Of a stretch of 64,000 nucleotides of DNA, positions 8,637 through 64,000 are shown in pieces. Source of the stretch: Eledone cirrhosa (Eukaryota); contig OZ024753.1 in assembly GCA_964016885.1 (NCBI GenBank), positions 27,094,001 to 27,158,000 on the forward strand, read 5' to 3'. Each line of letters opens with the position of its first letter. The first letter of the stretch is position 1. The notes under the pieces were generated by a model. That model saw nothing but the letters and a program-made list of their open reading frames with translations. It was not told the DNA's origin and made no database searches. A program made the position numbers and the translations under genes.

Positions 8637-9596
8637 AAATTCAGAACTCCAACGGCTGGGTTCCGGCCGTTTCATCAGCTACATTCGAACTGTTCGATTC
8701 TAGCTGTTGAAATGGCCAGAGCTCAGCCGTCGGTGTCCTGAATTTTTTCATATTACCCACTCTACTACCCCAAGTATTGAGAACTCTGGTGAGTAATGGT
8801 CTAACTGGTTTTTACTACCTCCAATCTGATATATATATAAAAATTAAAGGTCGACCTTTAATTTTTATCTTTAATTTTTAATAAATGCTCGGATTTATTC
8901 CTTGAAATCTTTGAGCTTCTACAGGTGGTATGGCGCATGTTTGTGATTTTCTCAGACATAACATCTATAATTTTGATAGTATTATATATATATATGTGTG
9001 TGTGAGAGGGTGTCAATACATAAACTTTTATTAGAGACAGTGTGAGGCAGTAAAAATGGACCACAGTTCAAATTAATATGTTAAAAATAAAAAAAAAACT
9101 GTAACATTAAAATAAAACCCGAATAAACAAAGATGAAGCTGCAGCTTTGGTTTAGTAAGTTATTTCTCATGAAAATGGTCAACACAGTGTGTGGGGGTTT
9201 CAACAGTGTGTGCATGTGTGTGGGGTGGGTCAACAGTGTATGTGTGTGTGTGTGTGTGGGGGGGGGTCAACATAGTGTGTGTGGGAATAGAAGTAGTGTT
9301 ATTTCTAAACTTATCTTAATCTATTATCTTAAGCCTGGAAGCCAAGACTGAGTGGTAGAAGTAATTGAAGTATTATTTAGAGGTGTTTCTGTTCACTTAT
9401 CACAATAAGTCTGGAAGTAATGGTTGACCAATGTTAATAACACAAACAGACAAACAAAATAACAATATAACAATGTAACAGTAAAAAAAACCCCAAAACA
9501 TATATATTCTTTCTCTCTCCAGCTCTTAGTTGCCACAGTGTATGTTTATGGAACAGTCTCTCACAGTGACAACAGTCATCTTTGAAGTAAGAAAAA
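7925..9596 (-). other. predicted terminal 3'-UTR exon of the EFCAB14-like gene
   Basis: Strong acceptor atattttatatttcag| before 9596; minus-strand AATAAA at 8092-8097 and 7942-7947; AU-rich sequence. The 3' end is approximate. Confidence 0.5.
8631..8751. repeat. imperfect palindrome in the predicted 3'UTR
   Basis: ATGAAAAAATTCAGAAC...CATCAGCTA / TAGCTGTTG...CTGAATTTTTTCAT. Confidence 0.8.
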
Positions 9597-11214: not shown

Positions 11215-11303
11215 AAGAAATTAGGAAATTCTTTGTACTTACTCTGAACTATTGGTCAAGAAATTAGGAAATTCTTTGTACTTACTCTGAACTATTGGTC
11301 AAG
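11215..11303. repeat. perfect 43-bp tandem duplication covering the post-stop sequence and splice donor
   Basis: AAGAAATTAGGAAATTCTTTGTACTTACTCTGAACTATTGGTC x2 (11215-11257, 11258-11300). Confidence 0.95.
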
Positions 11304-11484
11304 TTGAAATTGTGGTACTAGAAATGTTTTTCGTCGAGGTCACTGGAGTGGAGGTGGCGACATTTGTGGTGGTAGTAGTAGTAGCAGCTGTGGCTGTCTC
11401 ATTAAGCCGGGAGTCAAAATTATATAACTGCATTTGTAGCTGTAATATCTGATCCTGGAGTTTAATTTCTGTGGAATTCAAATC
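11299..11484 (-). CDS. EFCAB14: EFCAB14-like exon 7 (last coding exon: coiled coil then Thr/Ser-rich tail, TGA stop)
   Basis: tttttgtcttctag| acceptor; DLNSTEIKLQDQILQLQMQLYNFDSRLNETATAATTTTTTNVATSTPVTSTKNISSTTIST*. Donor AGA|GTAAGT lies 13 nt after the stop (exon ends 11286). Confidence 0.78.
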   Translation of the reverse strand, partial: DLNSTEIKLQDQILQLQMQLYNFDSRLNETATAATTTTTTNVATSTPVTSTKNISSTTIST

Positions 11485-12056: not shown

Positions 12057-12140
12057 TTCTTGAAATTGGGTAGTTAATCTGGTGAAATCATATGTGAAGT
12101 TATGTCCCTTCTCAATTTGAAGCTGTTTGATATCTGATCT
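12057..12140 (-). CDS. EFCAB14: EFCAB14-like exon 6
   Basis: tcattcacag| acceptor; RSDIKQLQIEKGHNFTYDFTRLTTQFQE; donor |GTTAGT; 84 nt, phase 0 to 0. Confidence 0.72.
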
Positions 12141-13043: not shown

Positions 13044-13154
13044 CAATTCTTTCATACTTGTAGTGATATTCTCAAAGTTGGTAGAATCAATCTGGAATTT
13101 ATTTTCTACTTTGCTTTTCAGCGTTGCTAAGTCACTTCCTTGACTTCTTAAACT
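13044..13154 (-). CDS. EFCAB14: EFCAB14-like exon 5
   Basis: ttcttctttgcag| acceptor; SLRSQGSDLATLKSKVENKFQIDSTNFENITTSMKEL; donor |GTGAG; 111 nt, open, phase 0 to 0. Confidence 0.82.
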
Positions 13155-13566: not shown

Positions 13567-13665
13567 CTTTGACATAGTCTCAACTTCAGTTGGCAGTGCC
13601 TGAAGGGAAGGAGCTTTAGCAAGACTTGATTCTAAACTGACTGATTTTTCTTTGAGAGTGGCAAC
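13567..13665 (-). CDS. EFCAB14: EFCAB14-like exon 4
   Basis: tttgtag| acceptor; VATLKEKSVSLESSLAKAPSLQALPTEVETMSK; donor AAG|GTAAA; 99 nt, phase 0 to 0. LPTEVE resembles EFCAB14 LPTTVE. Confidence 0.88.
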
Positions 13666-14673: not shown

Positions 14674-14819
14674 TTCTTTTGTAAGTAAGGTGACATTATT
14701 CAGAATGGCTTGGAGACCATTTTTACCAGATTTGTAGTTATTAAGAGTTTTGTTCAACTCTTGAATTTGGGTGTGAAGCCGTTGAAATTCTTCAGGTGTA
14801 AACTGATTCTTTCTTTCAA
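14674..14819 (-). CDS. EFCAB14: EFCAB14-like exon 3 (coiled coil)
   Basis: cttatag| acceptor; (V)ERKNQFTPEEFQRLHTQIQELNKTLNNYKSGKNGLQAILNNVTLLTKE; donor |GTAAGT; 146 nt, phase 1 to 0. Confidence 0.88.
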
Positions 14820-21986: not shown

Positions 21987-22135
21987 CTGTTTCTAATTTT
22001 TTCTGGAAGTAGTCCAAATTTTTCCGTAAAGCAAAATGCATCCAAAGTAGTGTTCCACAGGCAACTAGACAAGCTAGCAATACTAAAAAACCGGAGACAG
22101 TCAAGCATGTCGTACATACATTCGAACGACTCCGT
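21987..22135 (-). CDS. EFCAB14: EFCAB14-like exon 2 (CxxC + signal-anchor TM helix)
   Basis: ttttatttctag| acceptor; (K)RSRSNVCTTCLTVSGFLVLLACLVACGTLLWMHFALRKNLDYFQKKLET; donor G|GTAAA; 149 nt, phase 2 to 1. Matches the recalled EFCAB14 segment CKICYPLCGFVILAACVVACVGLVWMQVAL. Confidence 0.9.
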
Positions 22136-45159: not shown

Positions 45160-45326
45160 TTTCTAATGATAGCTTTTTGCGTGGGAACAGTAAATTCGGT
45201 CTCGGAAGAATCAGTATCGTCATCGCCACCAGAGTTTGGCCGTAGTAGTTCCTGGCCACTACCTCGACATTTTCGACGAAGTTTCCCGTTGCCGACCAGG
45301 GCGTCCAGTTCACGGCGCTTTTTCAT
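45160..45326 (-). CDS. EFCAB14: EFCAB14-like type II membrane protein, coding exon 1 (cytoplasmic N-terminus)
   Basis: ATG at 45326, MKKRRELDALVGNGKLRRKCRGSGQELLRPNSGGDDDTDSSETEFTVPTQKAIIR+AA, donor AA|GTAAG (phase 2). Resembles the EFCAB14 N-terminus as I recall it (MKKRKELNALIG...LLR...DSDSESS). Not in the ORF track. Confidence 0.85.
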
Positions 45327-45800
45327 CCTTTTGATCGGCTTGAAATCAACATTGGCCCTTGTCTGAGAATCCAGTTTCGCTCGTTGTTAATGATGCTATT
45401 GACGATCGTGACAGTAAAACAGGGACGACAATTGCGATGGACGTAGGAAAAACAACCAGACAAGAACATAGAGCAATCATCGGTATACAAGTGTCGTTGG
45501 CAGACAGCTTTCTAGCCGTAACCGTCGCCTACCTTTCTCTCAACCGCTCATCGCCGCCAGCTTAATATTAGTTGTTAAACGAAGGAAAAGTCACAACATC
45601 CTCGAGAGCAATGCTATATACAGTTTTGCTAACGATATTGACGTGTAGGAGTTAACTTCCGCTGAATTACGGGCTAAAGCAAATCCTGAAGTTTCATTGG
45701 ATAATAAATATTGTGTGTATGTCAGTGTATTATATATTAGTGTGCAGGTCGTTGTTTTACGGACGGAATAAACGATCGGTTTCTTCAAACTTTAACAAAG
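45327..45800 (-). promoter_or_regulatory. CpG-enriched 5'UTR/promoter region of the EFCAB14-like gene
   Basis: Visible CpG enrichment against a CpG-poor background directly upstream of ATG 45326; ETS-type CGGAAGT at 45655-45661 (minus strand); TGACG half-CRE near 45639. Confidence 0.5.
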
Positions 45801-47302: not shown

Positions 47303-47331
47303 TCAAGGGAGATAACTCCTGTTCTCTTCAA
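47303..47331 (-). CDS. candidate short terminal exon of the duplicate, (V)EENRSYLP*
   Basis: ttgtag|TTGAAGAG phase-1 acceptor starting V-E like exon 3 (VERKNQFTP), but the polypyrimidine tract is weak. An out-of-frame Thr-rich stretch follows. Confidence 0.3.
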
Positions 47332-47425
47332 CTACAATATTGTGAATTACTTGAATTGGGCCAACGAAACCTTTATATCACTTGATATTTCATTAGCATG
47401 CTTTTCCATCCTCATTATTTATGTG

Positions 47426-52082: not shown

Positions 52083-52237
52083 CTGATTGGAACTCTTTCT
52101 TTAAGTTTGAAACTTGTTGCAAGAGAACAAAGGTAACCAGTGCCACTGCAATTAATCCAGCTATTGCTATGGTAGCAATGAAGTACTTAATGTGTTTGCA
52201 TGGATTGCATGATGGTTCATCAAACTGTGGCTTCTTC
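52083..52237 (-). CDS. CxxC + transmembrane exon of the EFCAB14-like duplicate / alternative N-terminus
   Basis: ttattgttattctag| acceptor; (K)KKPQFDEPSCNPCKHIKYFIATIAIAGLIAVALVTFVLLQQVSNLKKEFQS; donor CAG|GTAAG; 155 nt, phase 2 to 1, as for exon 2. Confidence 0.75.
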
Positions 52238-53469
52238 CTAGAATAACAATAAAAAAAAAAATGTAATGTTCTTTCCATATGATTAATGAAATTGTTTTAT
52301 TTAAAGTCTAGGCATGTATACACTAGCTAATAAAATATTTCAGAACACACATGTGAATACAAGTGGTTGAAATGGGGTTCCTCCAAAGGATTTTGGAGTA
52401 ATGTTACTCGTTACAGTGCATAGCTCGGAGATCAGAGAGTCATTCAAGGTAGAGGCACTACTTCTCCAAATTGAAAGATTATAGCTCCGATACAATGGGT
52501 ATGTGGTTAGAATGTTTCAGGAAAGAATCGTCGGAGAGATTTTACGGGCAAAACCAACTGGTAGGAGACCCAGGGTAGGTCGCAAGCAAGATGGTTGGAT
52601 TGCATCCATGAGCTTGGCTAGTCTCGCTTGGAGACAGTTCCTTCTGACAGGACCCACAGGAAGGAGTATTTGAGGACTCTGCCCTCAAATACTCCTTCTC
52701 AGGAATATGTGGGCGAAGAAGAAGAAATGTACGGCATAGATTGATTGAAACTAGAATCATATATACATATATTACATAAGAACATACAGCAGTACACCTA
52801 TACTACATGAATCGACCGATGGAAAGAGAAATATATATCAGTACACACACTCCATGGATAATGATATGTATACTATGAAGCACATGTTTACAGCAAAGAA
52901 GCATGTGTGTTAAGAACCTGACAATAAAGTTCTTATATAAAATTACGATGGAAGGTTTTAACCCTTTAGCATTTAAACCAGCTGTATCTGGCCAGAATTT
53001 CTCTCACCTCTGTTCAAACTGACCATAACTGGCTGCTGACACTTATGTTAAGGTATTGTTCTCAAAATAAATGATATCAAAATCTTGTAGATTCGATATT
53101 ATGTGAGATAGTTATGTTTACTGTGAAAATACAATAGTATATATGTATGGTCCCGTTACTCCTCAGAGTCGTGGGGTGTCGTATTGACATACATAGTGTT
53201 TCTTGGGCATTTTAAGCCTGGCAGAGCCCATCCCTCTCCAGGTCTGAGTACAGCAGATTTCTTCCAGAGAAAGATAGAAAGTGAAAGAGAGAGAGGAAAT
53301 GAGAAAGAGATATAGAGGAAGAATCCACCCCAGTACTAGACTGGTACTTTTTTTATCGACCTCGAAAGGATGAAAGGCAAACTTGACCTCGGCGGGATTT
53401 GGACTCAGAGAACAGAGAGCCGAAATGAATACCATAAAGCATTCTATCCAACAGTATATATATATATAT

Positions 53470-53588
53470 ATATTTATTAAAATAACAGATTAAAGTTTAA
53501 GCAAAGAATCGCTGCTTTCAGAAGATCCCGTTAAGGGTGAAAGCAACGATTCTTTGCTTAAACTTTAATCTGTTATTTTAATAAATAT
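53470..53588. repeat. hairpin with 51-bp arms, 1 mismatch, 17-nt loop
   Basis: 53470-53520 pairs with 53538-53588. Confidence 0.9.
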
Positions 53589-53671
53589 TTGCTCTATGGT
53601 TCTTATATATTTGATATATATTTATCCTTATCGAGCCCTCTTTGGATTTTAGTCTTCAAATTTATTATTAT

Positions 53672-53704
<33 letters not shown>

Positions 53705-53709
<5 letters not shown>

Positions 53710-54442
53710 GGCAGACTGTATGATGCGTGTATCCGAACAGCAATGTTACATGGTAGTAAGACCTGGGTGCTGAAGGTGGAAGACTTACGTAGATTAGAGA
53801 GAAACGAAGCCTGCATGCTCCGATGGATCTCTAATAGTAATATACGCGACCGACAAAGCATAAATGAGAGAGACTGAGCATAAGAGGAATCAAATGCTGT
53901 GTGCAGGAGAGGCGGTTGCGTTGGTATGGACATGTGATGCGTATGAAGGATGACAGCTGCATAAAAAGGTGCAGAGCACTAGAAGTCGATGGAAACCGCG
54001 GAGTGGGGAGACCCAAGATGACCTGGGATGGGGTGATAAAAGCCGACCTTACCCAATTACACCTCTCAAAGGCGATGACACACGACCGTGACCTCTGGCG
54101 TCACGCAGTAATACTGAGTACCCGACCTCCCATGGGTACAAGCTGAAGAATATAGACAATATGCCCCCATACCCCCCACTGCAAGGTGGTCGTGGAGGTG
54201 CCATGGCAAAAAAGCACCCAGCCCACACTGTAAAGTGGACGTGTAGGCGCCACGAAAAAGCACCCAACACTCACTGTAAATGAGGTTGGTGTTAGGAAGG
54301 GCATCCAGCTGTAGAAATCAAGCCAAATCAGTTCCTGTATGAGCAAGGCATGGTCAGCCGACCAGACACTGCCCACAACAGGACAACTCGTCTAACCCAT
54401 GCTAGCGTGGAAGAACGGACGTAAAACGGTGATGATGATGAT
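53705..54442 (+). mobile_element. RTE-clade LINE 3' fragment, related subfamily
   Basis: MKGRLYDACIRTAMLHGSKTW...ERRLRWYGHVMR; the tail GTTAGGAAGGGCATCCAGCTGTAGAAA...(GAT)n recurs at about 50170-50500 and 59190-59348. Confidence 0.8.
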
Positions 54443-54451
54443 GGAGAGAGA

Positions 54452-54506
<55 letters not shown>

Positions 54507-56698
54507 TAATGTAAATGTTAAAGGGTTAATGGACTGTTTTATCCAAGAACCAGTGGCAGTTTCAGGCAGGTTGGTTATTTCAATAAATACATTGAACATT
54601 TCACTTATTTTATTAAATTTTATGGCTAAAACTCCATCTTCTAATATAGTCATAGGCAAACTGCAGCCTACAAGCTGCCCATTTGGCTTGCTGAATCCCA
54701 TGCCTAATTTCAAAATGACTCAACTGTACTATGAGTATATTTATCCAGTGGAAGATGAGATGTGAGAACAGAAGTAGAGAGTGGGAGAGTAGTGTAATGT
54801 ACTACTATTTGCATTTAAGCACATTCAATTAAAGGTGATACCAACTTAGTTGTTAATAAAGAGAAGGAAATATAATCAATATATTGTGGAAAGGCCTTAA
54901 TAATATATATGCAATCTGTTATAATATGGGGAAACATTGAGTGCATGCAACAGAATGAAAGTTAACATAAGAGTCGGCAGAGTTATCGACTCTTTAGGAA
55001 GAACTACAAGAGAAAGAGAAAGTATTTTGAAAATTAGGGAAATAATCTTTCACGTTTTTATTAAATTAGAAACTATTATTATTTACATTAAATGATCATT
55101 TAAAGTATTTTCAAATGTTTATGAGGAAATTCTTAAAATGAACTGTGATAATCTCAAGAAAAAAAAAAAAAATGCAAGATTTCACTACGTAGTCAAGGAT
55201 ATTTATTTTATGCCAACGTGTCAAAGTTGACATATTCAAAATAACTGAATCAGCCGCCTAGCAAATCTCGATTTTGGTCACTGTTGGAACTCAGAAATAC
55301 CAGCCAAATTTACCTCACATCATGAAGTACACACAATGATCAACCCTCCTCCTCCCACAAATAAAAACAGACGAATATGTCTTTGATCATAATAGGTCTG
55401 TTCGATCACGACTGACGTGGGATAAAAAGTATATATATATATAGTTATTACTGTGATATGAAAGACAATTTTATACCATAGTAATATATACATAATAGGG
55501 TTAACGTATCGTAAGAGAGGATGAAGTAGAGAGGTACAACTCCTTCATTCACTTATATATCACCTTGATCGACCAGTTATATATATATATATTAGTTATT
55601 ACTGTGATATGAAAGACATTTTTATACTATAGTAATATATATATATATATATATTGCTTTTTTTTGTTAAGTTACAAATAAATTAATATTCGATAAAATT
55701 AAATTAATTCTACAGACACGGGAAAAGGTGAATACGATATCAAAACTTCAACCAAATTTTAAAATAACGGAAATCTGTGATTTAGAACACCACAAGTAAT
55801 ATAATACAGCAGTAGGAACAAATATTTAAAAGTTTATCAAACATTTAAAAAGATTTACGAAAGTGAGTTTAGCAACAAGAACAACAGTAAAACATGAGAA
55901 ACAGGAAGAAGTTATAACTGACAAGTAAGCAAACTAACACGACACACATGTTGTACGTGTCCGATTTAACACAGAAATACAATGTTATTTATACAACTGT
56001 AAATAATAAATATATATATTTAGTCTGATCCATTTATGTATCAATAAAGTTCGATGTTTAAAGCTTAAAAAACAAAAGAAATATAATTCTACAAACACAC
56101 ATACATACACGTATATATTTATACCACTCATTAGTCATACAACTCTAAACAGACACCAGGAAGTCGTTATATGGTCATTTGACTTGCTAGAAAAAGCAGC
56201 CAATTACCCTCAATTACACCCTACCGGTTTAAAAATAGGACACATTGGTCAATGTAGTCCTAGATCTACAGGCTGGTCATTGTTAAAATGCCTTTGACCG
56301 TATGTCCGTTTAACAAGGACTGACCTGAAACTTAACAACACGTACACAACTATACAAACACACTTGTATACAAATACACATAATACGTGTCTAAAACTAC
56401 ACATTCGTAAATATACGCTCGTACACTCATAAAACTCCTTACACAAACTTAGTTATGCAATCGTGGCAAAAATTAAAAGTTTTTCTCATACAAAAAAAAA
56501 CAAACAAAACTTCGAGATATGAAAAAGATGTTTGTAGGAAAAATAATAGAAATACACAGTATATATATATTCATTTAATGGCTATGTGGTGAGCCTTGTT
56601 TACTCTGGAGTTTCACCTGCGCACTCGCAGGATCATTATATATATGTATATATATATATTTAAAGACGAAGAAAAATTTCTTATAACCGTATACTCAC

Positions 56699-56826
56699 TT
56701 TTTACCAAACAATTTTGATCTTTTCGTCTTAAGAGGAGGTAAGGTTAGAATTTCCTGAGAATCACTGGCACTATCGTTAAGTAAATTTATCATGTTGTGG
56801 TCATCGGCATCACCTTTGGATTTCAT
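56699..56826 (-). CDS. first coding exon of an EFCAB14-like duplicate / alternative N-terminus
   Basis: ATG 56826, MKSKGDADDHNMINLLNDSASDSQEILTLPPLKTKRSKLFGK+AA, donor AA|GTGAGT (phase 2, same as exon 1); joins in frame to 52237. Confidence 0.65.
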
Positions 56827-56963
56827 AACGATTCTTAGACAGAGACACCAAGATAGAAGAAAAGAAGAAAAAATACTTTTAAGAAATGAAATGTAGTTGT
56901 GGTGGTGGAGTTGTTATAGAGTGGCGATGTTACTGACGGGAAACAGAGTGGGGTATAGGAACA

Positions 56964-56973
56964 GTGACGTCAC
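56964..56973. promoter_or_regulatory. full palindromic CRE (GTGACGTCAC) about 140 nt upstream of ATG 56826
   Basis: TGACGTCA at 56965-56972 seen directly; its position fits a proximal promoter. Confidence 0.5.
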
Positions 56974-61016: not shown

Positions 61017-64000
61017 AAAGCTCCGTGCTGCAGCTTCCTTGAATCGGAACTCAGCACAACATGAAAGTTTTAGTCTGCGTGATGATGGGCAGATCTGGAG
61101 GTTTGTTAAGGCTGGTGAAACGTGGAAGAGAGATACCAGCTGGTCTGAGTGTGATCTACCCACAATAACTGGCAATGTAAAAACTGCTACAACTCTGGGA
61201 AACTAAACCAGAACAACCTGCCACCCTCTACACACCATCATAAACTGCGAGCAGGGTACAAATTGTTGTCCTTAAATGCTCGCAGTTTATGCAACAAGAT
61301 ACATCTGTTTGAATCCTACGTCAGAAGCATCGACCCTGACTTCATCACAGTCACAGAAACATGGGCACATTCCTTACTCTGTGATGGTGTTTTCAGCATT
61401 ACTGGGTACAACCTTTTCCGCAAGGACCGCATTAATCGCCGTGGTGGTGGTGTGATGGTCTACGTTCGTTCAAACTTTTCGGTAATTCCCTGCGTTGATT
61501 TGAACGAATCACAGGAAGAAGTTTTTTTCTGTGACATACGTATGACCATGTCAACACTTCTGCTTGGTGTTGTTTATCGCTCCCCAAACTACCATCAGGA
61601 CACACAGCTTTGCGATATCCTCAGAGCTGCTGCCAAGAAAACAGCCACTTATGTGTTTATTGCAGGTGACTTCAATCATCCTGAGATCGATTGGGAAACC
61701 TTTCGTTGGCCACAAGGTGCAAACGATTTCCTTGAACTAGTGCTGGACTCAAACTGGTCACAAGTAGTCACCTCTCCAACAAGAGGTGACAACACTTTGG
61801 ACCTGATCTTCACCACTACTCCTGAAGTGTGTATCAGTTGTACTACCGAGGAACCTCTAGGCGACTCTGATCATGCTCTGATCATTGCTAATCTGGCACT
61901 TGAGGGCAGCAACAAAAACCAGAGCCATCTCCAATCTGCTTGCTTTGATTGGAAGAGGGCGGATTGGAACTTGTACTGCACTGAGCTACAGCGCCCAAAC
62001 TGGCATGAGATGTATAACTCTGTAGATGTGAACACTATACTCCAGAGCATCCTGGACTCAATATGGATAGCGTGTGCAGCATCGGTGCCACGTAAGCGGA
62101 AAAATAACCACCCCAAAAGTGCAATTTGGGAAACTTCAGCGGTCCGACTTGCCAAGAAAGAACGTCGGAACGCTGAACGGGAATATAAACTGCATAAATC
62201 AGATGCCAACAGAAAAAAGCGGAATAAATTTTCTAACCATCTCAAGCAAGTCACAAAGAAGGCAGTGCTTGAATTTGAACAGTGCATAGCAACCAATCCT
62301 AACAGTAAGGTGTTCTGGAAATATGTTCATTCAAAGCAGAGACCTCACTCTCCAGTTGGTCCTTTTCGCAATCCCCACACAAGCCAGATCACTGACGATC
62401 CCAAAGAATGCGCAGAACTCATTGCTGAGTGCTATGCAAGTATTTTTACTGTTGAAAACCAGAATGTACCATCTCCACCATCTCTAACATCAAATTCCAT
62501 AACAACTATGGAATTTACACCTGCAATGTTGCGACGTCACCTTAAGAATAAGCGCAACTATGCCTCCCCTGGTCTTGATGGTGTTACATACCTGCTTCTC
62601 AAACGTGGCGGGTATTTCCTTTTGCGCCAGCTTTCTTTCTCCTTTCAATACTGTCTCAACAATGGTGCTACTCCGGAGCAGTGGAAAACTGCCAGTGTCA
62701 TTCCCCTGTTCAAAAAGGGCAACCGCATGTCACCTGTCAACTATCGTCCAGTCAGTCTTACTAGCTGTATGGCCAAACTGATGGAATCCTGTGTCAGAGA
62801 AACACTTTGGAACTTCTGGAGCTCTCACAGCCTCATCCGGCCCTCACAGTTTGGATTTATCCCTAACTCCAGCTGCTGTGATCAGCTTATCGAGTTCCTT
62901 GAAGACATCACCCGGATCACTGACAGCGGCTCATGGGTGGATGTTGTTTACCTTGACTTTGCTAAGGCTTTTAATTCTGTGCCACACAAAAGACTTATGG
63001 AAAAACTCTCTGCAATGGGTGTGAGGGATGATCTTTTCGACTGGTTGAAATCCTTCATTCTCAGCCGAAAAGAAGTAGTCACGGTTCTAGGACAGCATTC
63101 TTCACCATATGAGATGTCATCTGGTGTACCACAGGGATCTGTTCTTGGTCCCCTTTTGTTTGTGGCATATATTAATGACATAGATGCCAACTTACAGAAT
63201 GCCACGGTACTGAAATATGCAGATGACATCAAGCTGTACCTTGAAATCAAAAGGACTGATCCTGAAATCTACAACTCTTTCCTACAATCAGACCTGGGCA
63301 CAATGCAGCAATGGATCACAGACTGGCAACTGAAGCTGGCTGTGGACAAGTGTACCACCATGCATTTTGGGAGGAAAAATCCAGCGTCCACATACTCCCT
63401 CCACAACACTGATATCAAGAAGTCCTCTTGTGAACGTGACCTGGGCATTACTGTCAGCAGCGATTTGCGTTGGACAAAGCATGTTGTCAAGAAGGCCGAG
63501 GGTGTCTTGGCATCACTCAGCAAGACCTTTGTTAGTCGCTCTCCAGCCATCTATTTAAAACTGTATACAGCTATGGCACGACCACACTTGGAATTCGCAT
63601 CATCAGTCTGGAACCCCTATCTTGCTCAGAACATTGACCTCCTGGAAACTGTTCAGAGACGTGCAACCAAGCGCATACCCTCCATCAGACACCTACCATA
63701 CTCTGAACGCCTTGCTTCCCTGGGCATGGATTCATTGAAGCTCCGACGTCTGGCAATGGACTTGGTAAATACCCACAAAGTTATTAACCATCTCGCCAAT
63801 TGCAACCCTGAGCACCTTTTTGATCTCCATGTGTCTAACACAAGTGGACATGCCTACAAAGTCAGAAAACAACATAGCTCCCATGTCGTAGACATTTTTT
63901 CACGCTCAGAGTTGCTGAAGCATGGAACAAACTGCCTGCGTCAGTTGTTAGCTGCCGAGACACTGCATCCTTTAAGACACTCATGCTTCCCGAAATACGC
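61017..64000 (+). mobile_element. CR1-like LINE, 5'-truncated in ORF1, running off the window end
   Basis: ORF1 remnant ends ...TTLGN* at 61206; ORF2 carries APE endonuclease and RT; 3' end is homologous to the fragment at 23960-24210. Confidence 0.93.
61197..64000 (+). CDS. CR1-like ORF2: APE endonuclease + reverse transcriptase (no stop seen in window)
   Basis: One frame: LNARSL, VTETW, RKDR..RGGGV, GDFNHPEIDW, TLDLIF, SDH, NYRPVSLTS, QFGF, YLDFAKAF, GVPQGSVLGP, YADD (63216-63227). Near 63890 the conserved FFTLRV..WNKLP tail shifts frame. Confidence 0.9.

What the first reader, a model, noticed from the sequence alone, without database searches (positions are those of the whole stretch)
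52083..56973. Second promoter + first exon + TM exon upstream: swappable N-terminal module or hidden paralog of EFCAB14-like
Seen: ATG exon 56826-56699 and TM exon 52237-52083 join in frame, have canonical splice sites and share phases 2 and 1 with exons 1-2. Features align: LL..S..DS.E..T.P, CNPC vs CTTC, TM helix, TFVLLQQVSNLKKEFQS vs HFALRKNLDYFQKKLET. A perfect CRE lies about 140 nt upstream. I found no convincing full set of exons 3-7 before 45.3 kb, and the phase-1 donor at 52083 fits the exon 3 acceptor at 14819. Inference: either two promoters attach different cytoplasmic tails and anchors to one shared ectodomain (variable-first-exon design, one possibly cAMP-responsive), or this is a separate microprotein paralog. 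Open frames despite strong divergence suggest selection.
Basis: partly seen in the sequence, partly recalled or inferred. Interest (0 to 1): 0.75.

Follow-up and report, generated by a model that had tools for sequence, protein, structure and literature searches.

The report
Swappable anchor on cephalopod EFCAB14-like protein
In octopuses and cuttlefish, one membrane-protein gene has a second front end (two extra exons, likely an old duplicate with its own promoter) that puts a different cytoplasmic tail and membrane anchor on the same outer coiled coil, likely sending the protein to a different compartment of the cell.

Summary
The two upstream exons (56826-56699, 52237-52083) are real, in frame and canonical. 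They are an alternative front end of the EFCAB14-like gene, not a separate microprotein. O. sinensis RefSeq isoforms X1 and X2 differ only in this module and share 220 identical residues. A cuttlefish protein and two unnamed proteins carry the same upstream module, and one of these shares 163 identical residues with a downstream-type protein. The module is 41-44% identical between octopods and decapods, like the shared ectodomain. It scores above tail/helix/lumen-preserving shuffles against a profile of the ancestral exons 1-2, so it is likely an internal duplicate. It lacks the N-terminal di-arginine ER signal and carries a conserved DSQE[IL]L dileucine-like motif, so I predict a sorting switch (about 55%). 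The perfect CRE is real and unique in the window; cAMP control is untested. In the window's own species a spliced contig covers exon 52237-52083 but stops at its donor, so that junction is not bridged. No EF-hand was found in these proteins. The design is a known kind (variable first exons, ECE-1-like); the isoform is machine-annotated and I found no paper on it.

The parts
56965..56972 (.). Perfect palindromic CRE, about 40 nt before the inferred 5' end of the upstream (A) transcript
   Evidence: surrounding 271 nt single-copy in the genome; function untested
56932..56938 (-). Half-CRE (CGTCA) overlapping a TCAGT initiator-like word near the inferred start
   Evidence: the initiator reading is recalled from insects, weak
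56699..56924 (-). Exon A1: 5' UTR plus coding 56826-56699 (cytoplasmic tail); second in-frame ATG at 56793
   Evidence: 5' extent inferred from the 226 unlaid letters of X4 record 22 and X4 holding 0.77 of the words of 56695-56960
56746..56763 (-). DSQEIL dileucine-like motif (DSQELL in decapods)
52083..52237 (-). Exon A2: basic stretch, CxxC, transmembrane helix, start of coiled coil; phase-1 donor
   Evidence: covered exactly end to end by X4 record 22
45160..45624 (-). Exon B1: CpG-rich 5' end, coding 45326-45160, begins MKKRR (di-arginine ER-type signal)
   Evidence: X4 record 17 letters 1-465
21987..22135 (-). Exon B2: Cys-rich transmembrane helix; phase-1 donor
14674..14819 (-). Shared exon 3, first luminal coiled-coil exon; common acceptor
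13567..13665 (-). Shared exon 4
13044..13154 (-). Shared exon 5
12057..12140 (-). Shared exon 6
   Evidence: matches the O. sinensis proteins
11286..11484 (-). Shared exon 7: end of coiled coil, Ser/Thr-rich tail, stop at 11301-11299, donor in the 3' UTR
9010..9596 (-). Probable non-coding last exon (acceptor at 9596 or 9579; AATAAA at 9032)

Best explanation
The two exons are an alternative front end of the single EFCAB14-like gene, likely an old internal duplicate of exons 1-2 with its own promoter, that swaps the cytoplasmic tail and membrane helix on a shared luminal coiled coil and is predicted to change where the protein sits in the cell. Shown: both front ends joined to the same exon 3 in database proteins of an octopod and of decapods; single-copy shared exons. 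Inferred (about 93%): the same junction in the window's species. Inferred (about 80%): origin by duplication, with the downstream form ancestral. Predicted (about 55%): form B, starting MKKRR, is held in the ER or early Golgi; form A lost that segment, turned the ancestral acidic EEF stretch into DSQE[IL]L, and would be picked up by AP adaptors for endosomes or lysosomes. Speculative (about 35%): the CRE makes form A cAMP/CREB-inducible.
For: O. sinensis XP_029639880.1 (isoform X2, P0003) has the A module and XP_029639879.1 (isoform X1, P0011) the B module, followed by 220 identical residues. Of the 9 hits, 4 are A-type (P0003, P0005 from Acanthosepion pharaonis, and unnamed Logan P0006, P0009), 3 are B-type, 2 have neither front end. 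P0009 (A) and P0008 (B) share 163 identical residues from exon 3 on. Octopod-decapod identity: A module 41-44%, B module 89-90%, first 150 ectodomain residues 40-55%. X4 contigs start or stop exactly at exon edges 52237/52083 and 45160, while X1 and X2 run through. Against a profile of B modules (2 coleoid + 6 outgroup), 4 A modules beat segment-preserving shuffles (1, 1, 0, 0 of 1000; outgroup-only profile 3, 5, 0, 0 of 1000), collinear over profile positions 24-29 to 99-102; hhalign probability 63%, E 7e-5. Outgroup genomic loci keep phase 2 (4 of 4 examined) and phase 1 (2 of 2) introns at the same places. DSQE[IL]L is one of three 6-residue windows with 5 invariant positions in the A alignment and the only one in the tail; no B tail has the motif (0 of 5). 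MKKRR fits the NH2-XXXRR arrangement and [DE]XXXL[LI] is the stated dileucine consensus (PMC3952855, passages).
Against: In the window's species the junction 52083 to 14819 is not bridged: X4 record 22 ends exactly at the donor, and record 17 (1613 nt) by length alone seems to run unbroken past exon 3. Graph cleaning could cause this, but that is my inference. X4 is not on record as RNA and all runs are one study. The octopod motif is DxxxIL, not the strict consensus (strict pattern met in decapods only), and a loose motif appears in 10-17% of shuffled A tails. The window's A form starts MKSK, which fits the XKXK version of the ER signal in PMC3952855 (1 of 5 A proteins). With coleoid sequences alone A-B similarity was weak (hhalign E 0.23; 15-382 of 2000 segment shuffles reach the score), and tail-only scores stay modest (1-33 of 1000). 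The A promoter is only mildly CpG-rich (o/e 0.87-0.91 against 1.22-1.35 at B). CRE conservation in other species could not be checked.
Confidence: 0.7

Rival explanations
1. The architecture is as described, but the second front end serves only tissue- or stage-specific expression; both forms go to the same compartment and the conserved tail residues are inherited family features.
For: LL, acidic/Ser stretch, Pro and Cys are shared with the ancestral module, so some conservation needs no new signal. The octopod motif is non-canonical, and loose motifs arise in 10-17% of shuffles. In TPC1, losing an N-terminal dileucine by an alternative promoter changed localisation only partly (PMC4386455, passages).
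Against: A lacks the first 23-28 profile positions, the best-kept part of B, and its 30-residue tail core is kept between octopods and decapods (0 of 2000 shuffles reach the tail score) in a form that differs from B.
Confidence: 0.22
2. The upstream exons are a separate short gene (about 104 aa) ending in an exon at 47331, or splice to an unknown exon in this species, and the joined proteins elsewhere are read-through or model artefacts.
For: X4 record 22 stops at donor 52083 without bridging. An AG at 47332 gives a phase-1 frame starting VEE that faintly recalls exon 3.
Against: A-plus-exon-3 proteins in 4 records from three kinds of source (RefSeq, a cuttlefish genome annotation, Logan contigs of 1.3-2.6 kb). 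The 47331 stretch is not similar to exon 3 and has the weakest pyrimidine tract of 10 acceptors compared (8 of 15).
Confidence: 0.05
3. The A module is not a duplicate but an unrelated tail-plus-helix pair recruited to the gene; its likeness to B is convergence of type II anchors.
For: A-B identity is about 23-25% in octopods; exon A1 against B1 DNA is not above shuffles (52 of 500).
Against: Profile scores above shuffles that keep tail, helix and lumen composition, same intron phases and positions, exon A2 against B2 DNA 7 of 500. This rival concerns origin only and is compatible with the sorting model.
Confidence: 0.15

Closest known systems
EFCAB14 / KIAA0494 homologues; O. sinensis isoforms X1 (XP_029639879.1) and X2 (XP_029639880.1)
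   Same: Same gene. The A form is already machine-annotated as isoform X2, under the name 'PH domain-containing rcdII'. Nearest Atlas clusters for the B form are EF-hand/EFCAB14-named (0.94 arthropod cluster, 0.76-0.77 chordate clusters).
   Different: No EF-hand family hit in 6 coleoid proteins or 2 outgroup proteins. No paper found on the two front ends.
Endothelin-converting enzyme 1 isoforms a-d
   Same: Type II membrane protein; alternative promoters give different N-terminal cytoplasmic regions and different locations, surface or endosomes (PMC2567069, passages).
   Different: ECE-1 forms differ only in part of the tail. Here the whole tail, the helix and the first luminal turns are replaced by a two-exon cassette.
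Variable-first-exon genes (GCNT2, UGT1A, clustered protocadherins; recalled, no call)
   Same: Duplicated 5' exons with their own promoters spliced to common 3' exons. In GCNT2, as I recall, the variable exon includes tail and helix of a type II protein.
   Different: Only two cassettes, each of two exons, 23% identical, with opposite predicted sorting signals; no array.
Drosophila Dscam1 exon 17.1 / 17.2
   Same: Two alternative transmembrane exons on a shared ectodomain direct the protein to dendrites or axons (PMC2566808, passages).
   Different: Dscam1 chooses by mutually exclusive splicing of an internal exon; here the choice is tied to the first exon.
Invariant chain CD74 p33/p35 (recalled; only reference titles seen)
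   Same: Type II protein whose N-terminus toggles between a di-arginine ER signal and dileucine endosomal signals.
   Different: CD74 uses two start codons in one exon and keeps one helix.

Membership tests
EFCAB14 (features recalled; no Pfam family matched) | Basic N-terminal motif of the MKKRREL type | tested here: met
   Form B and 7 of 7 outgroup loci (the loci were found partly by this pattern, so the count is not independent). Absent from form A (0 of 5).
EFCAB14 (features recalled; no Pfam family matched) | Single transmembrane helix after a short tail, type II orientation | tested here: met
   One hydrophobic 21-mer at residues 50-86 in 10 of 10 front ends; 3-8 N-glycosylation sequons after it and 0-1 before it in 5 proteins. 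Orientation is inferred.
EFCAB14 (features recalled; no Pfam family matched) | Long luminal coiled coil | tested here: met
   Only coiled-coil families score in Pfam; model shows long helices 53-276 but at mean pLDDT 47.5.
EFCAB14 (features recalled; no Pfam family matched) | C-terminal EF-hand | tested here: not met
   No EF-hand family among listed hits for 6 coleoid proteins (lists cut at 25 for two; a weak EF_assoc_2 hit, E 0.03, lies on the helix) or 2 outgroup proteins; no loop pattern in the proteins; one pattern hit in 8985 frames is a low-complexity repeat. So: an EF-hand-less homologue, not an EF-hand protein.
Alternative-promoter / variable-first-exon genes | Different 5' exons joined to the same 3' exons | tested here: met
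   O. sinensis X1/X2 and P0008/P0009; not bridged in the window's species.
Alternative-promoter / variable-first-exon genes | Each 5' exon has its own transcription start | tested here: inconclusive
   X4 record 17 begins at 45624, not at an acceptor, in a CpG-rich stretch; record 22 would begin near 56924. Contigs cannot show a start.
Alternative-promoter / variable-first-exon genes | Variable exons are paralogous | tested here: met
   Profile test; moderate strength.
Alternative-promoter / variable-first-exon genes | Tissue- or signal-specific use of the promoters | not testable with these tools
   One RNA-like run only.
Clustered protocadherin-type arrays | Many tandem variable cassettes | tested here: not met
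   Two cassettes in 214 kb.
ECE-1-type tail isoforms | Transmembrane helix shared, only the tail differs | tested here: not met
   Each cassette has its own helix.
ECE-1-type tail isoforms | Isoforms occupy different compartments | not testable with these tools
   Predicted from motifs only.

The most novel reading that the evidence does not exclude
Coleoid cephalopods duplicated the two-exon anchor of an ancient, unstudied coiled-coil membrane protein and rewired the copy into a CREB-driven cassette that exchanges ER retention for endosomal or vesicle sorting, so that cAMP signalling, for example in neurons, relocates the same luminal rod between compartments.
Probability: 0.15. Interest if true: 0.72.

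Novelty: new member of a known kind. Interest (0 to 1): 0.45.

Why it matters
EFCAB14 appears in the papers listed only in passing in screens and association studies (listings), so a natural pair of forms with one ectodomain and two anchors is a ready handle on what the rod does and where. The A cassette has been kept since octopods and decapods split (roughly 270-300 million years, recalled), which argues for a function. It is also a clear case of a duplicated promoter-plus-two-exon unit turning one motif into a candidate sorting signal. It matters less as a new principle: alternative promoters that change tails and location are well known.

Tried and rejected
Protein search with exon 52237-52083 alone: 0 of 30 candidates passed, a false blank, since P0003 carries that exon. 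The same exon against 1.84 billion representatives gave 1 hit, a tandem-repeat frame, rejected. A profile search with 7 aligned proteins returned only the same 9 proteins, so the range of the A module outside coleoids is unknown. No RNA holder was listed on record. No X4 piece was listed at 47331, but that table is cut, so this is not evidence. Exon A1 lay outside the laid stretch. Complex prediction for two copies of the ectodomain: no answer. No solved relative. The structure model was too poor for a fold search. Atlas search with residues 1-130 of P0003 gave an EFCAB14 cluster at 0.90 but includes shared residues, so it is not independent. Five upstream ATGs in the B leader equal chance (5 seen, 5.3 expected). 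Paper one search (any 2 of 6 terms) returned only general cephalopod papers and is uninformative. Earlier findings: three look-ups, nothing shown. L007 was left out of the outgroup profile (only 38 residues matched, exon end unclear); 6 of 7 loci were used, with splice sites chosen by eye.
Full report
Observation. On the minus strand, exon A1 (coding 56826-56699) and exon A2 (52237-52083) have canonical splice sites and join in frame into a 94-residue front end: acidic/Ser stretch, basic stretch, CxxC, a hydrophobic helix and the first turns of a coiled coil. The downstream gene has exons B1 45326-45160, B2 22135-21987 and shared-type exons at 14819-14674, 13665-13567, 13154-13044, 12140-12057 and 11484 to a stop at 11301-11299. 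Both front ends have a phase-2 first intron and a phase-1 donor, so either reads into exon 3 (302 or 313 aa). The CRE is at 56972-56965, the only perfect copy in the window (0.44 expected), in single-copy DNA.

Where does the donor at 52083 go? A search with exon 3 for longer proteins gave 9 hits among 20 candidates. Four begin with an A-type module, three with the B-type module and two with neither. O. sinensis isoforms X1 and X2 have consecutive RefSeq accessions, carry B and A respectively, and share 220 identical residues from exon 3 on. Acanthosepion pharaonis P0005 and unnamed Logan proteins P0006 and P0009 are A-type; P0009 shares 163 identical residues with B-type P0008. I call P0006, P0008 and P0009 decapod from their likeness to P0005; their source is unnamed. 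In the genome, exon A2, exon 3 and exon B1 each have one strong match, and exon-level profiles over 214 kb found two front ends and one ectodomain. The candidate exon at 47331 is not similar to exon 3.

Evidence from the window's own species. Four runs of one study hold the A1 region; none is on record as RNA. X4 behaves like RNA: record 17 (1613 nt) lies on 45624-45160 with letters 1-465 and record 22 (381 nt) on 52237-52083 with letters 227-381, both ending at splice sites where X1 and X2 run through. Reading record coordinates in the record's own direction, the 226 unlaid letters fit A1 from about 56924, in line with X4 holding 0.77 of the words of 56695-56960. Record 22 stops exactly at the donor, and record 17 by length could run from B1 to a CA repeat near 9220-9280 without a break at exon 3. 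So the A2-to-exon-3 junction is not shown in this species. Removal of a short, lower-depth link during graph cleaning would explain it, but that is inference and I count the result against the model.

Conservation and origin. Between octopods and decapods the A module is 41-44% identical, the first 150 ectodomain residues 40-55%, the B module 89-90%. With coleoid sequences alone A and B were only weakly alike. A metagenome scan gave 7 distant relatives among 328 pattern matches, all B-type at the start and of unidentified animals. Using 6 of them, the first intron is phase 2 in 4 of 4 genomic loci and the second phase 1 in 2 of 2, so B is the ancestral form. Against a B profile, four A modules scored 12-15 bits, reached by 0-1 of 1000 shuffles that keep tail, helix and lumen composition (0-5 of 1000 with outgroups only; tail alone 1-33 of 1000); hhalign gave 57-63% probability (the hmmsearch shuffle test ran without the null2 correction). 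The match is collinear from the conserved LL to the exon 2/3 border and omits the basic N-terminal segment. A is therefore likely a duplicate of exons 1-2 that starts just before the LL. The decapod start Met aligns with the second ATG at 56793. Whether A exists outside coleoids is unknown.

Likely mechanism. The protein is a type II membrane protein by hydropathy and sequon distribution, with a long helical luminal part and a Ser/Thr-rich end (low-confidence model). Form B starts MKKRR, one of the five N-terminal arrangements given for ER localisation of type II proteins (PMC3952855, passages). Form A lacks it and has DSQEIL (octopods) or DSQELL (decapods) about 30-35 residues before the helix, the best-kept window of the tail, in place of the ancestral acidic EEF stretch. 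That matches or nearly matches the [DE]XXXL[LI] consensus in the same paper. I predict B in the ER or early Golgi and A in the endosomal system (about 55%). Against this: the octopod motif is non-canonical, loose motifs occur in 10-17% of shuffled tails, and this species' A form begins MKSK. The CRE about 40 nt before the inferred start and a half-site at 56938-56934 suggest CREB input, but one site in one species is weak evidence.

Comparison with known systems. It works like ECE-1, where alternative promoters change the tail and the location (PMC2567069, passages), and like Dscam1 exon 17, where two helices target one ectodomain differently (PMC2566808, passages). TPC1B is a caution: loss of an N-terminal dileucine shifted location only partly (PMC4386455, passages). 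In build it is a two-member variable-first-exon gene (GCNT2, UGT1A: recalled). It is an EFCAB14 homologue by database names and Atlas neighbours but fails the EF-hand test, as do two outgroup proteins.

Novelty. The A form already stands in RefSeq as an automatic model with a misleading name. Searches for EFCAB14 with cephalopod (0 papers), the long name with octopus (0), EFCAB14 (74 papers, 30 listed), KIAA0494 (26, 15 listed), EFCAB14 with Golgi (10) and cephalopod with alternative promoter (3) showed no title or abstract start on these forms; I saw listings only. The library lacks most subscription papers, and I read no supplements; cephalopod transcriptome tables may list the isoform.

Verdict. 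Interest 0.45.

Noticed in passing
window 61155-63998 (+): Uninterrupted 948-aa frame with endonuclease and reverse transcriptase domains of a LINE, running to the window edge.
   Followed up: partly
window 60888-60514 (-): GIY-YIG endonuclease-like fragment (E 0.001, under the Pfam cut-off), perhaps from a Penelope-type element (element type recalled).
   Followed up: partly
window 11303-11218 (-): Tandem duplication of about 43 nt that copies the exon 7 stop region and donor, giving donors after 11286 and 11243.
   Followed up: partly
window 45469-45323 (-): An upstream frame of 48 codons ends in a TGA that overlaps the ATG of form B; the A leader has no upstream ATG. Counts are at chance level.
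   Followed up: partly
window 45322-45160 (-) and P0001, P0002: O. vulgaris models include a helix-less form that reads exon B1 in another frame into exon 3 (P0001) and a form lacking exon 4 (P0002); support unknown.
   Followed up: no
L005:148-1395 and L006:324-1781: Full-length distant homologues (415 and 485 aa) also end without an EF-hand, so the lack is not peculiar to cephalopods.
   Followed up: partly
window 52160-52146 (-), exon A2: AGLIA is invariant in all 5 A-type helices, a small-xxx-small pattern that could pack helices.
   Followed up: no
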